Shown piece after piece: positions 51,001 through 54,000 of a stretch of 64,000 nucleotides of DNA (position 1 is its first letter; the number at the start of each line of letters is the position of its first letter). The position numbers were made by a program. Location: assembly GCF_011045215.1 (NCBI RefSeq), contig NZ_CP049201.1. One strand, given 5' to 3'. This DNA comes from Escherichia coli. Lineage in GTDB: Bacteria; Pseudomonadota; Gammaproteobacteria; Enterobacterales; Enterobacteriaceae.

Positions 51001-54000
51001 AAAACATTATGAGAGGTTTTGTGAGCTCAAAAAAAGAAGAGAGCAAAATCCTGTTCACAGATTAAATGAAGCATTGCCAAGAAAGATAAAAGAACCCAAA
51101 AGTAAGAAAAAATTAGTAAAAGAAAGAGAAATCATTAACAGCAGAAAAAAACATAAACAGGAGCAGGGACCATCGCTGGCTGAACTTAATAAAAAAGTTC
51201 GTGAGATACTGAAAACTCCGGCATGGAGAACGCTGGAAACGAGAATTCGAAGAAATGGCATCACATTTAAGTCAAAAGCAGAGTTAGATGCGCTTTCTGA
51301 ACTTTATGCAATTTATTCATGGGTTTCATATTGCAAACGGGGCGATAATTATTCTGTGTGGTTTTTGAATTGTCCGGATGTAAATATAAATCTTCATGTG
51401 TGCGAATGCCGGTCTTCTGAAAGCGATTGTTATCTGCCATCCCGTTTTATTATCCTCCCAGCTCCATTAAGGCAAAAAGTAAAAAGAAAATACTCTGCTA
51501 ATTCGTCTGGGGTACCAGGACATAATGATTCAAAAAGTCTTTATAAGACAGTTTTGTCTGTTTGTGGTGGGAAAAGAGAAACCGAATTGTTCTTTTATTC
51601 ACTGCCAGTAAAGACTAATCATCATCCTTACTGGATTAAAAGTGGTGTGGTTAAAAGATTTTCTCCTGTTTTTGGTTTGTTGTTTTATGAGCAGGAAAGG
51701 TTAACAGGAGGTGTTTTTCGTTATGTGTTGATAAGGTTTTATAATACTTTTAAGGAGAATTTGTTTTTTGTTGAGATTGTCTCGTGCTGTTTTCTTGTTG
51801 AGCTTTTTCATGATATTGATTCGTTTTTTATAAATCAACGATTAAGTAAGCTTGAAAGTTTTATAGATAAGTGGAAGGAGGGTAAAGAAATCTGGATAAA
51901 AGCATATCTACAACTTATACATAATACATTGGGAATAACTGAAACAGAAAAACTCGTCAATCTATATAATTCATTTTTTACTGATAAAGTGGTTCTCTGG
52001 GATGAATCAGTAAAAAAAGTTAAGTGGATTTATGAGAAATAGTACCATTTAACTGAAAGCCACCATAACGTCTTTTTGATTACATTCATGATAATGCATC
52101 TCATTTTGTTTTCGTTTTTTTGTTCAGGGAAATTTTCCGAACATCAGTGATAATGAGGGTTTTGTTGTTTTTGTTTCTGCAATGTTTGAGGGCTGTTCCT
52201 GGAGATGATTCGTTGTTTGTGAGCAAGAGGTGGTCCGCTTTTCTGGACAAGTTTTGTATTTGTTGAGTGGTGAAATGGAAGTAAAAAGAGCCCCTTTCTG
52301 GCAATGACTGAAAAAGTCAGTAGCGTGTGACAGTAAAAACTAACATAAAGTGATTATCGTATGATTATGACAATAACTTATAACTTTTATGAAAAGAATA
52401 ACAGAAACTACGAGGCCATAGCAGATTCCTGAGATCATGTTTTCTGAGGTAGAGAAAATAATTCCAGAGTAAATCTGTTCTGTTTTTAGGACAGAAAACT
52501 CCATGTTGGCTGTAAAAGTGAAAAATCAACACCCAGTATGCATGGATGTCTGAAGATGTTGAGAATGTCGGTATGATACTATATACACATATTTTACTCA
52601 GTATTTTTACTAAGCATTTCAGTAAGTGTTATACACGTATTTTCATAAACAATTCTACAAGTGTTTTCATTAAGTATTGTTATACACATTGCTTTGTCTG
52701 ATACACATCCAGTTTAGTAAATTTGTTAGTCCTGTTTTTACGATAGCTAAAATCAGTTAACGTCACTACAAAACTCCCTGTCCTGTTTAAGCAGTCAATA
52801 TGCTATTCGATTTTACTGATGTTACATTTAACCTTTTATGAGTTTTCGTGTTTTTAGTCGTTAACCTGAGACAAGTGTTTTTATGTAAAACGCAAATCCG
52901 GCTGAGATAACCTGGCGTGATTTACTGTGTGCTTACGATGATTTTGTTAAATGGTTTTATAGATGATTTTGTAGCAATGAGATTGATGAGATGATTAACT
53001 GGCCCTGGTGTTTTTTCTCAGCGCAAGGTGATTATCTTCATCATAAGGCTCTTTTCAGGAAAAGCGTGATGATTGGTTCTGGTGTTTTGATTCAGATGAG
53101 ATTTACGTTATTGATGGTTAATCGTTTTTATGGTGTGTTGAAAAGTAACGTTTTCAGGATAAGAAAATCGATTCTGATATTGGTGGTTTTTGTTCTTGTG
53201 GCGGGGTTATCTGTAAACAGGTTTTAAGCGCGCTATTCGGCTCTGTGATTGAGTTGTGTGGTTAAGCTGTAGGTTTTGGTGTTGTTGTTGATTTACAGAG
53301 CCAGAAAGCGTTCTGATTGCGTTTTTGGTGTTTTGTTTGTACGTTCTGTGGATCCGTTTCCCTTCTGACTTTTCTCGTCGTCCATGTCGTTTTTAAATCC
53401 ATTCATGCTGTTGTTGCGTGTTTTGTTGTCGTGTGCAGGATTATCTTTTCGTTACGGGACGATTCATTCCGTTTTAATCAGGAGCTATTGGCGTTGCTCA
53501 TTGGTGGGATGCCGTAAAGTTTTACCGCGGCGATTAATGATGTGAAGTCAATCCAAATCAACGGAGATCTCTCATCATGAATCAACCAATACACAATGCT
53601 TACTGGTTATCCCGTTTTGAAAGTATTCTCAACAGTGACCTGGTGCAACACCTTGCCGTTTCGTTAATCCGGGTGGATTTACGTTTCCCTGAGTATATGC
53701 CTGCCAGCATCATGGATACCGATTTAGATTCAGCGGTGATTTCTCGTTTTTTCGAATCCCTGAAAGCCAAAATCCAGGCTTACCAGCGGAAAAAACGACG
53801 TGCCAACAAGCGTGTGCGTGCAACCACTCTGCGTTATTTCTGGTGTCGGGAGTTCGGCAAGATGTATGGCAGGAAACATTATCACGTGATATTACTGCTC
53901 AACAAAGATACCTGGTGCTCGCTCGGGGATTTCAGCGAACCATCTTCGCTGGCGACGCTGATCCAGCTGGCATGGTGCAGCGCTCTGCATCTTGAGCCCT

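What the first reader, a model, noticed from the sequence alone, without database searches (positions are those of the whole stretch)
52575..52715. Iteron-like direct repeats upstream of the first Rep-like (Gp2-family) gene
Four copies of a TTATACACRT core recur at roughly 47-50 bp spacing inside a 1.5 kb AT-rich stretch with no convincing ORF, upstream of a Gp2/YfjJ-family gene. The arrangement resembles origin or regulator-binding iterons and could be a relic or active replication/regulatory site of the element.
Basis: seen in the sequence. Interest (0 to 1): 0.5.

Follow-up and report, generated by a model that had tools for sequence, protein, structure and literature searches.

The report
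Iteron array upstream of island Rep-like gene
A real array of short direct repeats, variable in copy number, sits on the likely promoter of a rolling-circle-Rep-like (YfjJ/Gp2) gene in a common E. coli genomic island; relatives in other genera carry similar arrays, so it is probably a protein-binding control or origin site that has not been described before.

Summary
Four same-strand copies of (W)NATACACRT lie at 52581, 52629, 52680 and 52699, with spacing 48, 51 and 19 nt. They are 4 of only 7 such matches in the 64 kb window.

- **Homologues.** In 61 homologous E. coli-type modules (37 distinct arrays) the repeats are always present and always in one orientation. The array length ranges from 118 to 282 nt (1-6 TACACRT cores), through gain and loss of 13-, 34- and 48-nt units.
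- **Conserved layout.** The array belongs to a layout found upstream of YfjJ/Gp2-family genes across Enterobacterales: a 12-nt box (TAAYNYCAGAGT, 52459-52470), then 60-110 nt, then a promoter-like motif (TGTYGGTAT..TATAT, 52566-52584), then direct repeats. The promoter-like motif is homologous to the K-12 yagK promoter listed from an RpoD genomic-SELEX screen.
- **Distant relatives.** They carry their own tandem arrays at this place: 20 nt x5.7 versus x2.3 in two sister loci, and 22 nt x3.5 in another locus.
- **The protein.** Gp2 has invariant HUH and YxxK motifs. Its model best matches parvoviral NS1/Rep and RepB origin-binding nickase domains, which bind tandem repeats.

The most likely reading is that these are iterons or operators bound by the island's HUH protein, for autoregulation and/or origin recognition. 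Binding, nicking and replication are inferred, not shown. The DnaA-box, structured-RNA and coding readings are not supported.

The parts
52459..52470 (+). Conserved 'box' TAATTCCAGAGT (family consensus TAAYNYCAGAGT). It marks the sharp left edge of the module shared by E. coli islands.
   Evidence: It is the only 12-mer shared, with at most 2 mismatches, by the window and four distant upstream regions. It occurs once per locus. BLAST homology of about 40 metagenome loci starts at 52451-52456 whatever lies to the left. Box-like sequences are present upstream of K-12 yfjJ and yagK and in L146-L148, L150-L156 and L160.
52559..52585 (+). Promoter-like element: -35 TTGAGA (52559-52564), a 15-nt spacer and -10 TATATA (52580-52585). 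It contains the conserved motif M2, TGTCGGTATGATACTATAT (52566-52584).
   Evidence: This is the most conserved block of the left part of the module. M2 matches the L153/L155 seed with 3 mismatches, P<0.005 against shuffles, and recurs in L147, L148, L150, L152, L154, L156 and L160. It is homologous to K-12 yagK TTTAGA-16-TATAAT, which PMC3946193 lists as an RpoD-holoenzyme SELEX promoter with H-NS. The consensus scan did not list it, because its 15-nt spacer falls outside that scan's 16-18 range.
52581..52590 (+). Repeat copy 1, ATATACACAT. It overlaps the -10 element and the predicted start site.
52629..52638 (+). Repeat copy 2, TTATACACGT.
52680..52689 (+). Repeat copy 3, TTATACACAT. Its first nine bases, TTATACACA, are the only perfect match to the DnaA-box consensus in the array.
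52699..52708 (+). Repeat copy 4, TGATACACAT. It is followed by the conserved right anchor ACATCCAGTTTAGTAAA, which ends at 52721.
52590..52679 (+). 12-13-nt sub-repeats, (A)TTTTACTAAGYRT and degenerate copies, that fill the units between the cores.
   Evidence: TRF finds period 12-13 at 52590-52643 and the repeat finder reports D1 and D4. In L012 the 48-nt unit TATACACATATTTTACTAAGTATTTTTACTAAGCATTTCAGTAAGTGT occurs x3.5 at 96% match.
52722..53576 (+). Long T/G-rich non-coding leader between the array and the Gp2 start. It belongs to the conserved E. coli module, but distant relatives lack this length: their promoter-like motif lies only 160-500 nt from the start codon.
   Evidence: Composition and skew. 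Identity is 80-97% across homologues, and 53400-53650 is 94-97% identical even where the Gp2 gene is degraded. No Rfam match and no conserved structure.
53577..54308 (+). Gp2/YfjJ-family gene (243 aa), an HUH endonuclease-type protein. The HUH motif is H101-Y-H103 and the catalytic motif is Y213-L-V-K216.
55479..57083 (+). YfjI-type DUF3987 protein, a helicase-like candidate partner of the replication module.
   Evidence: Pfam DUF3987 at 3e-73 and PHROG DNA helicase at 1e-41. In K-12, and apparently in L153 and L155 (upstream ORF not scanned), the box-M2-repeat region lies directly 3' of yfjI and 5' of yfjJ.
58263..58319 (+). Compact copy of the same control region upstream of the second YfjJ-type gene (58673-59239): box-like TTAAATGAGAGT (58263-58274), TGTTGG (58302-58307) and a single TTGTACACGT (58310-58319).

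Best explanation
The ATACACRT repeats, with their TTTTACTAAG sub-repeats, are a DNA-level array of protein-binding sites (iterons or operators). The array begins on the promoter of the island's HUH Rep-type gene (Gp2/YfjJ family) and extends about 130 bp into the transcribed leader.

**Proposed mechanism (inferred).** The HUH protein recognises the repeated cores through its origin-binding nuclease domain, as geminivirus and parvovirus Reps and pMV158 RepB do. Occupancy of copy 1, which overlaps the -10 element and start site, together with the downstream copies, would repress its own promoter. The same nucleoprotein complex could mark the place where the excised island is nicked or unwound for replication with the YfjI helicase.

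**Shown.**
- The repeat array exists, keeps one orientation and varies in copy number.
- It sits at a fixed place in a conserved box-promoter-repeat layout.
- Independent tandem arrays recur at that place in distant relatives.
- The protein has the HUH/YxxK catalytic motifs and an origin-binding-domain-like fold.

**Inferred.**
- Which protein binds the repeats.
- Whether the effect is repression.
- Whether any nicking or origin activity occurs.
For: **The array is real and always present.**
- Four same-strand copies are clustered in the window.
- The array is present in 61 of 61 homologous modules. These give 37 distinct arrays of 118-282 nt with 1-6 TACACRT cores, none of them inverted, and they differ by whole 13-, 34- and 48-nt units.

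**It sits in a conserved layout.**
- The order box, then M2, then repeats is the same upstream of YfjJ-type genes in E. coli, K-12 yfjJ and yagK, Providencia, Morganellaceae and IMG/VR loci, and upstream of the window's own second paralogue.
- M2 corresponds to the yagK promoter TTTAGA-16-TATAAT, which was listed from an RpoD SELEX screen (PMC3946193).

**Distant relatives have their own arrays near this position.**
- L160 has a 20-nt unit x5.7, against x2.3 in its sister locus L161.
- L155 has a 22-nt unit x3.5; L146 has x3.9 and L150 has x2.8, but in those two the array lies several hundred nt upstream of the box rather than after M2.
- L154 has TTGTTAKTACAC x6-9, P<0.01.
- Periods of 20-22 bp, with sequences specific to each lineage, are what pairs of a DNA-binding protein and its sites usually look like.

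**The protein fits.**
- Gp2 has invariant HUH and YxxK motifs.
- Its model best matches NS1/Rep, RepB, Helitron and RAYT HUH domains, several of which bind tandem repeats next to their nick site (established knowledge).

**Extrachromosomal form.** One island of this type is deposited as a 62-kb circle with no plasmid replication gene.
Against: - There are no binding data.
- No conserved hairpin or nick motif was found next to the array.
- The period in the window (48/51/19 nt) is not a helical multiple.
- Copy number varies freely, and many E. coli copies of the gene are frameshifted and lack the Tyr motif. Part of the E. coli conservation may therefore be shared ancestry rather than selection.
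- A similar ACAC-type core occurs upstream of paralogues only 19-45% identical to Gp2. That is unexpected if each protein had its own specificity, and it leaves room for a common host or island factor.
- Several relatives (L148, L152, L156, K-12 yfjJ) show no significant array.
- The promoter assignment rests on homology to a sequence-inspected SELEX peak, and the -10 (TATATA) lacks the consensus final T.
Confidence: 0.45

Rival explanations
1. The repeats are operators for a different DNA-binding protein and serve transcription control only. Candidates are the island's AlpA/Vis-type protein (60141-60374), the HTH-WYL regulator (48960-49640), or an H-NS/Hha-type silencer. There would be no role in replication.
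For: The array starts on a promoter-like element, and the homologous K-12 spacer is flagged as both RpoD- and H-NS-bound. In distant relatives Gp2 is followed directly by alpA, and the region lies between divergent operons. ACAC-type cores recur upstream of very divergent paralogues, which suits a shared regulator. The region is AT-rich, GC about 0.32.
Against: No known site of AlpA/Vis, WYL regulators or H-NS was matched. The only AlpA binding element found in the papers searched (GGGACG) belongs to the P. aeruginosa AlpA antiterminator, which is not comparable with the 77-aa AlpA here. Lineage-specific repeat sequences argue against a host factor with fixed specificity.
Confidence: 0.2
2. 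The array is a neutral, slippage-prone tandem repeat in an AT-rich leader, a relic with no sequence-specific function. The E. coli conservation reflects recent common descent of the island modules.
For: Copy number is hypervariable. Identity across the whole 1.1-kb leader is a uniform 80-92%. Many linked Gp2 genes are frameshifted. A second microsatellite, GGTGAT, varies nearby. In-window statistics are only modest.
Against: Non-homologous tandem arrays arose or persist at the same position, just after M2, in several genera, and upstream of the box in two more. One pair of sister loci differs in copy number. The core and its orientation are kept in 37 of 37 arrays while the flanks vary. A 13-nt stretch, ATTGTTAT(T)ACAC, is shared with L154 although the rest of that region cannot be aligned.
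Confidence: 0.15
3. The repeats act at the RNA level, either as repeated motifs in the 5' leader of the Gp2 mRNA or as part of a small antisense RNA that ends at the terminator-like hairpin 52550-52528 on the minus strand.
For: The predicted start site (about 52591) puts copies 2-4 in the leader. There is a terminator-like hairpin followed by a T-run on the minus strand, with some compensatory changes. The islands also encode a ProQ/FinO-family protein.
Against: No Rfam match at E<=1. Folding z-scores over the array are only -1.2 to +1.5 on either strand. RNAalifold on 30 distinct sequences of the segment just left of the array, which holds that hairpin, gives no consensus structure, at -3.8 and -1.0 kcal/mol. 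No convincing minus-strand promoter was found. In L147 and L148 the repeat cores lie in the opposite orientation relative to the gene, which fits DNA recognition rather than RNA recognition.
Confidence: 0.07
4. The array is a cluster of DnaA boxes (TTATNCACA). It would either recruit host DnaA to an island origin or titrate and sense DnaA.
For: Copy 3 (TTATACACA) is a perfect consensus match and the other three copies have one mismatch each. Only two perfect boxes exist in the whole 64 kb window.
Against: Only 8 of 37 distinct arrays contain any perfect box. The conserved part is TACACRT, while box positions 1-3 vary (TTA, ATA, ACA, TGA, CTA, CTG) and position 9 is often G. Arrays in distant relatives do not resemble DnaA boxes.
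Confidence: 0.05
5. The region is an origin of transfer. The HUH protein would act as a Rep-type relaxase that nicks at the conserved box next to an inverted repeat, with the repeats as accessory binding sites. The sharp edge of homology at the box would reflect transfer end-points.
For: On the minus strand the order is inverted repeat (52475-52499), a few nucleotides, then the box, which is the order seen in many oriT sites. Homology among islands ends exactly at the box. The neighbouring genes (antirestriction, RadC, DUF932) are typical of plasmid leading regions.
Against: The hairpin is not conserved in sequence or clearly in structure. The antirestriction-RadC genes point away from the box, which is the wrong orientation for leading-region genes read from a transferred strand that starts there (inference from established F-type logic). 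No coupling protein or mating genes lie nearby.
Confidence: 0.05

Closest known systems
Geminivirus/CRESS-DNA virus origin: Rep iterons in the Rep promoter next to the nick hairpin
   Same: An HUH Rep-type protein with HUH and YxxK motifs. Short direct repeats, specific to each lineage, sit on or just after the promoter of the Rep gene, so one array can serve both origin recognition and autorepression. An SF3-type helicase function is associated; here it is a separate DUF3987 protein.
   Different: No conserved stem-loop with a nonanucleotide was found. The element is part of a large integrated island with a tyrosine integrase. The window's units are about 48 nt composites, and the gene lies about 1 kb away. 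Nicking has not been demonstrated.
pMV158 RepB double-strand origin (bind locus: three 11-bp distal direct repeats plus proximal repeats, with a nic hairpin)
   Different: The structural match is weaker than to parvoviral NS1. No IR-I-like hairpin and no single-strand origin were found. The repeats here overlap a promoter.
Parvovirus NS1 / AAV Rep origin-binding nickase domains, which bind reiterated (ACCA)n or (GCTC)n elements
   Different: Sequence identity is only 7-16% and the replicon type is entirely different. The repeat units here are longer and AT-rich.
SaPI/PICI replication module (pri-rep followed by an ori made of iterons flanking an AT-rich stretch) and phage P4 ori/crr (TGTTCACC iterons bound by the alpha primase-helicase)
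   Same: These are integrative elements with a P4-type AlpA/Vis gene and a helicase-type initiator. In K-12, and apparently in L153 and L155, the box-M2-repeat region lies directly 3' of the yfjI helicase gene, which is the classical position of a satellite ori.
   Different: In the window the array is 2.8 kb upstream of yfjI and is tied to the 5' side of the HUH gene in every lineage examined. The island is far larger than a PICI and has no capsid or packaging genes in view. No replication data exist.
Iteron plasmid origins (pSC101, P1, F, R6K, RK2)
   Same: Direct repeats in one orientation near the initiator gene. Relatives have periods of 20-22 bp. The context is AT-rich. The layout suggests autoregulation at the rep promoter.
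   Different: The initiator is an HUH protein rather than a winged-helix Rep. DnaA boxes are not conserved. The window's period is 48-51 nt.

Membership tests
Rolling-circle (HUH Rep) double-strand origin | Initiator with an HUH metal-binding motif and a catalytic Tyr (YxxK) in an HUH endonuclease fold | tested here: met
Rolling-circle (HUH Rep) double-strand origin | Direct repeats (bind locus or iterons) close to the initiator gene | tested here: met
   The array is at 52581-52721. It is conserved in 61 of 61 modules, and independent arrays are present in relatives.
Rolling-circle (HUH Rep) double-strand origin | Conserved stem-loop or sequence carrying the nick site next to the repeats | tested here: inconclusive
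   No conserved hairpin was found: folding z-scores are ordinary and there is no alifold consensus. The conserved box and M2 are candidate nick sequences, but nothing shows cleavage.
Rolling-circle (HUH Rep) double-strand origin | Site-specific nicking and replication that depend on the Rep and the origin | not testable with these tools
   This needs nicking assays and replication assays.
Iteron-type theta origin | At least three same-orientation repeats of about 17-22 bp at helical-phase spacing | tested here: inconclusive
   In the window four cores share one orientation, but the spacing is 48/51/19 nt. Relatives have periods of 20-22 nt.
Iteron-type theta origin | Conserved DnaA box or boxes beside the iterons | tested here: not met
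   Only 8 of 37 arrays contain a perfect TTATNCACA.
DnaA-box cluster (datA/DARS-like) | Several conserved consensus DnaA boxes | tested here: not met
   There is one perfect box in the window array and none in 29 of 37 homologous arrays.
Sigma-70 promoter with an operator array (autoregulated rep promoter) | -35 and -10 hexamers with workable spacing, conserved in homologues | tested here: inconclusive
   TTGAGA-15-TATATA is conserved in the 30 distinct upstream sequences, with TTGCTA as a variant. It is homologous to yagK TTTAGA-16-TATAAT from the RpoD SELEX screen. It was not listed by the consensus scan, and the -10 lacks the final T.
Sigma-70 promoter with an operator array (autoregulated rep promoter) | Repeat copies that overlap the -10 element or start site and bind the regulator | not testable with these tools
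   Copy 1 (52581-52590) overlaps the -10 element (52580-52585) by position. Binding was not tested.
Known RNA families (Rfam 15) | A covariance-model match | tested here: not met
   No match at E<=1 falls in 52000-53600. Two chance-level hits lie elsewhere in 48-58 kb.
Origin of transfer (oriT) | Inverted repeat followed by a conserved nick sequence, with a relaxase and a leading region in the matching orientation | tested here: inconclusive
   The order inverted repeat then box exists on the minus strand, but the repeat is not conserved and the leading-type genes point the wrong way.

The most novel reading that the evidence does not exclude
The box, the M2 motif and the iteron array together would be the cis-acting origin (nick plus bind loci) of an unrecognised replication or mobilisation module built into CP4-type genomic islands. 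The module would be a split HUH nickase (YfjJ/YagK/Gp2) plus a DUF3987 helicase (YfjI), the bacterial-island counterpart of the fused HUH-SF3 Reps of CRESS-DNA viruses. It would amplify, or hand over as single-stranded DNA, the excised island. That would give a function to a y-gene family found in about a third of complete E. coli genomes and in many Enterobacterales.
Probability: 0.2. Interest if true: 0.75.

Novelty: new member of a known kind. Interest (0 to 1): 0.5.

Why it matters
**The gap.** YfjJ/YagK ('inovirus Gp2') proteins and their CP4-type islands are very common. This module alone is in 1877 of 5426 complete E. coli genomes, and the family has 584 clusters at 50% identity. Yet the papers found here list the family as uncharacterised. 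How such islands are controlled, or replicate after excision, is unknown.

**What this adds.** A defined cis-element set (box, promoter motif, variable iteron array) next to an HUH Rep-type gene gives a concrete hypothesis that can be tested at the bench. It also gives a sequence signature for finding the control regions of these islands. Finally, it accounts for a hypervariable locus that could serve as a typing marker or as a determinant of incompatibility or immunity between related islands.

Tried and rejected
- **Coding reading.** The 51-aa ORF across the array is not conserved.
- **Known RNA.** There is no Rfam hit.
- **Structured RNA or ssDNA.** Folding z-scores over the array are ordinary. 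The one strong local structure (53180-53340, z to -3.9) is not conserved by eye in the alignment. Hairpins at 52475-52499 and 52527-52550 show mixed compensatory and disruptive changes and give no alifold consensus.
- **DnaA boxes.** Rejected on conservation.
- **P. aeruginosa AlpA antiterminator model for the long leader.** That AlpA is not comparable with the 77-aa AlpA here, and its site is GGGACG.
- **K-12 YagJ as orthologue.** It has the same length (243 aa) but is unrelated. K-12 YfjJ is 31% identical.
- **Phage collection.** The module has no match. In the plasmid collection it appears in four records: three carry it in full and one has a short fragment; one full record is an island circle and another an IncF plasmid.
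- **The search for related loci on GTDB representatives with the single protein.** This gave only 2 loci and was a poor use of the scan. The first alignment was too diverse for a viral scan.
- **Metagenome pattern scan.** It returned mostly chance hits and had to be filtered by BLAST, which left about 40 true loci.
- **Generic repeat test.** Counting the most repeated 8-mer with one mismatch has too little power in AT-rich DNA; even the window's array scores P=0.62.
- **Upstream of the second paralogue.** No comparable repeat array exists in 57050-58700, only a single core copy.
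Full report
**1. The observation**

The pattern TTATACACRT with at most one mismatch hits 52581, 52629, 52680 and 52699, all on the + strand. Only three other hits occur in the 64 kb window. Spacing is 48, 51 and 19 nt.

Between the cores lie degenerate 12-13-nt sub-repeats, TATTTTACTAAG. The real unit is therefore a composite of about 48 nt.

The array sits in the ORF-poor, AT-rich gap 52043-53576, where GC is 0.29-0.43. It lies 870-1000 nt upstream of the 243-aa Gp2/YfjJ-family gene (53577-54308). The one ORF that crosses it (52546-52701) is not conserved.

Within the window alone the cluster is only modestly improbable, with P = 0.016-0.04 after allowing for all k-mers. A looser test is not significant.

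**2. Context**

- Upstream of the island lie type II secretion genes (gspK-M, 37.5-40.2 kb).
- A CP4-type island then starts at about 40.5 kb. On the minus strand it carries AbiE-like genes, DUF4942, CbtA/CbeA, RadC, an antirestriction gene, DUF932, HTH-WYL and a GTPase.
- On the plus strand follow a 376-aa orphan, the gap, Gp2, a DUF3987/YfjI helicase-like protein (55479-57083), further YfjJ-type genes, and AlpA at 60141-60374.

**3. Homologous E. coli modules**

The stretch from about 52455 to the end of Gp2 is a module present in 1877 of 5426 complete E. coli genomes, mostly at 80-90% identity. The cargo on both sides varies: a TIR protein, a restriction endonuclease, an acyltransferase, IS elements.

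I collected 61 copies from complete genomes, assemblies and metagenomes. All 61 carry the array between two fixed anchors. They give 37 distinct arrays of 118-282 nt with 1-6 TACACRT cores. Every core has the same orientation, and the arrays differ by whole 13-, 34- and 48-nt units. L012 has the 48-nt unit x3.5 at 96% match.

One caution applies. The whole 1.1-kb leader is uniformly 80-92% identical, and many linked Gp2 genes are frameshifted 214-aa forms without the Tyr motif. E. coli conservation alone does not prove selection.

**4. A conserved layout across genera**

Distant Gp2 homologues (36-57% identity to the alignment's reference Brenneria protein, about 36-48% to the window's Gp2) were examined from Brenneria, Providencia, Morganellaceae, IMG/VR and other assemblies. 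Many of them, where the flanks are known, keep the divergent arrangement [RadC, DUF932, antirestriction, GTPase] - intergenic - [Gp2, AlpA]. Three elements recur upstream of the gene, in the same order.

*Element a: the box.*
- The consensus is TAAYNYCAGAGT; in the window it is 52459-52470.
- It is the only 12-mer shared, with at most 2 mismatches, by the window and four distant loci.
- It occurs once per locus.
- It marks exactly where homology among E. coli islands begins.

*Element b: motif M2.*
- M2 lies 60-110 nt downstream of the box. The consensus is TGTYGGTAT(AG/GA)TA.TATAT; in the window it is 52566-52584, with P<0.005 against shuffles.
- In K-12 yagK the same motif reads TTTAGA-TGTTGGATAGGTATTA-TATAAT.
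- That is the promoter TTTAGA-16-TATAAT listed for yagK in an RpoD-holoenzyme genomic-SELEX study, which also flags H-NS there (PMC3946193).
- By homology the window has TTGAGA (52559-52564) - 15 nt - TATATA (52580-52585), with a predicted start near 52591.
- Repeat copy 1 therefore overlaps the -10 element and start site, and copies 2-4 lie within about +40 to +120. This is an inference from homology. The simple consensus scan did not list the site.

*Element c: direct repeats.*
- L160 has the 20-nt unit TTGGTAAGATATAAGGGGTG x5.7, and its sister locus L161 has x2.3. Here M2's TGTYGG core is itself the repeated element.
- L155 has a 22-nt unit x3.5. L146 (22 nt x3.9) and L150 (22 nt x2.8) also have arrays, but theirs lie several hundred nt upstream of the box, next to the divergent gene.
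- L147 has an 11-13-nt unit x3.
- L154 has TTGTTAKTACAC x6-9 (P<0.01), which resembles the window's ATTGTTATACAC.
- Some relatives have only one core or no significant array: L148, L152, L156, K-12 yfjJ and yagK.
- The window's own second YfjJ-type gene has a compact version with a single TTGTACACGT at 58310. That site is one of the three non-array hits.

**5. The protein**

- Gp2 matches Pfam YagK_YfjJ_C and REP_ORF2-G2P, and weakly matches PHROG replication initiators.
- H101, H103, Y213 and K216 are invariant in a 25-sequence alignment.
- From established knowledge, these domains bind short tandem repeats next to their nick sites. In geminiviruses the iterons lie in the Rep promoter and serve both origin recognition and autorepression.
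- No paper found here characterises YfjJ, YagK or Gp2.

**6. Explanation**

The best-supported reading is a DNA-level array of binding sites that belongs to the promoter-proximal control region of the HUH gene. The HUH protein itself most likely binds it, for autoregulation and/or origin recognition together with the YfjI helicase.

Two observations fit an extrachromosomal stage without proving one:
- One island of this type is deposited as a 62,375-bp circle, with int abutting the distal end and no plasmid rep gene.
- In K-12, and apparently in L153 and L155 (upstream ORF not scanned), the region lies directly 3' of yfjI, which is the classical position of a satellite ori.

Binding, repression, nicking and replication are all inferred.

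**7. Rivals**

- **Operators for another regulator (AlpA, HTH-WYL, H-NS).** This stays open. It is favoured by the promoter position and by similar cores upstream of very divergent paralogues.
- **Neutral tandem repeat.** This fits the free copy number and the gene decay. It does not fit the recurrence of unrelated arrays at the same place in several genera.
- **RNA-level role.** This is weak. There is no Rfam hit, folding is ordinary, there is no consensus structure, and some relatives carry inverted cores.
- **DnaA boxes.** Copy 3 is a perfect TTATNCACA, but only 8 of 37 arrays have any perfect box, and the conserved part is TACACRT rather than TTAT.
- **oriT.** The inverted-repeat-then-box order and the sharp homology edge are suggestive. 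The hairpin is not conserved, and the leading-type genes have the wrong orientation.

**8. Verdict**

The array is real and conserved. It is a hypervariable set of iteron-like repeats that forms part of a previously undescribed but conventional-looking control or origin region of a widespread HUH Rep-type gene family.

It is a new member of a known kind, namely iterons beside a Rep gene. Interest is moderate: the mechanism is unproven, but the finding turns an uncharacterised y-gene family and its islands into a directly testable system.

Noticed in passing
window ~53178-53195 (homologues L002, L010, L011): A GGTGAT hexanucleotide microsatellite is expanded to about 4-7 copies in some homologous modules. 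In the window it is absent or reduced to a single copy (TGATATTGGTGGT).
   Followed up: no
window 53100-53400; L013 2287-2817, L020 2301-2831: A subset of modules (L013, L020, L021 and several metagenome loci) replaces this part of the leader with about 850 bp that carries a 176-aa ORF on the opposite strand. The array and the last 180 nt before Gp2 are kept.
   Followed up: partly
CP057032.1 (L024, L157, L158): A 62,375-bp circular record deposited as a plasmid is an entire island of this type. The integrase abuts the DUF4942/toxin-antitoxin end, and there is no plasmid replication gene or replicon type. It looks like an excised island assembled as a circle.
   Followed up: partly
Gp2 homologues P0060, P0081, P0092 and the 214-aa class: Many E. 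coli copies of the 243-aa gene are frameshifted forms (P0060 and P0092 lose the YLVK catalytic Tyr motif; P0081 is scrambled around the HUH motif). The first 70 nt or so of the gene and the 180 nt before it stay 94-97% identical.
   Followed up: partly
both sides of window 52455-54308; L001, L003, L006, L011: The leader plus Gp2 behaves as a conserved anchor between variable cargo slots. The cargo includes defence-type genes (a TIR-domain protein, a restriction endonuclease) as well as an acyltransferase and IS elements.
   Followed up: no
window 58263-58319; K-12 L014 6396-6547; L016 8950-9220: The second YfjJ-type gene of the window, and K-12 yfjJ and yagK, have compact versions of the same box-M2 region, with at most one ACAC-type core copy. 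The K-12 loci could serve as test beds.
   Followed up: yes
L160 1052-1164 vs L161 1113-1158: Two near-identical loci of a distant Gp2 relative differ in copy number of a 20-nt tandem unit (x5.7 against x2.3) that contains the TGTTGG core of the promoter-like motif.
   Followed up: yes
window 52043-53576 (exact place not located): The 7-mer TTTTGTT occurs four times within 130 nt, P=0.005 in shuffles. The leader is strongly T/G-rich on the + strand, with GC skew up to +0.39 and AT skew down to -0.46.
   Followed up: no
window 53180-53340: This is the only locally stable fold in the gap (arms 53231-53246 and 53295-53310; z to -3.9 on both strands). The pairing is not kept in homologues.
   Followed up: partly
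window 59467-60072 and 60641-61204: Two further ORFs around AlpA look like degenerate YfjJ-type genes; one contains 'YHVVLCV', which resembles an HUH motif. They do not reach the Pfam thresholds.
   Followed up: no
window as a whole: The best match of 52040-53580 among 5426 complete E. coli genomes is only 91.5% identical over the full length. The source strain or species is therefore not in that collection. No tRNA gene lies in the window although the island's distal end abuts the gsp operon, so the integrase and tRNA end probably lie beyond 64 kb.
   Followed up: no
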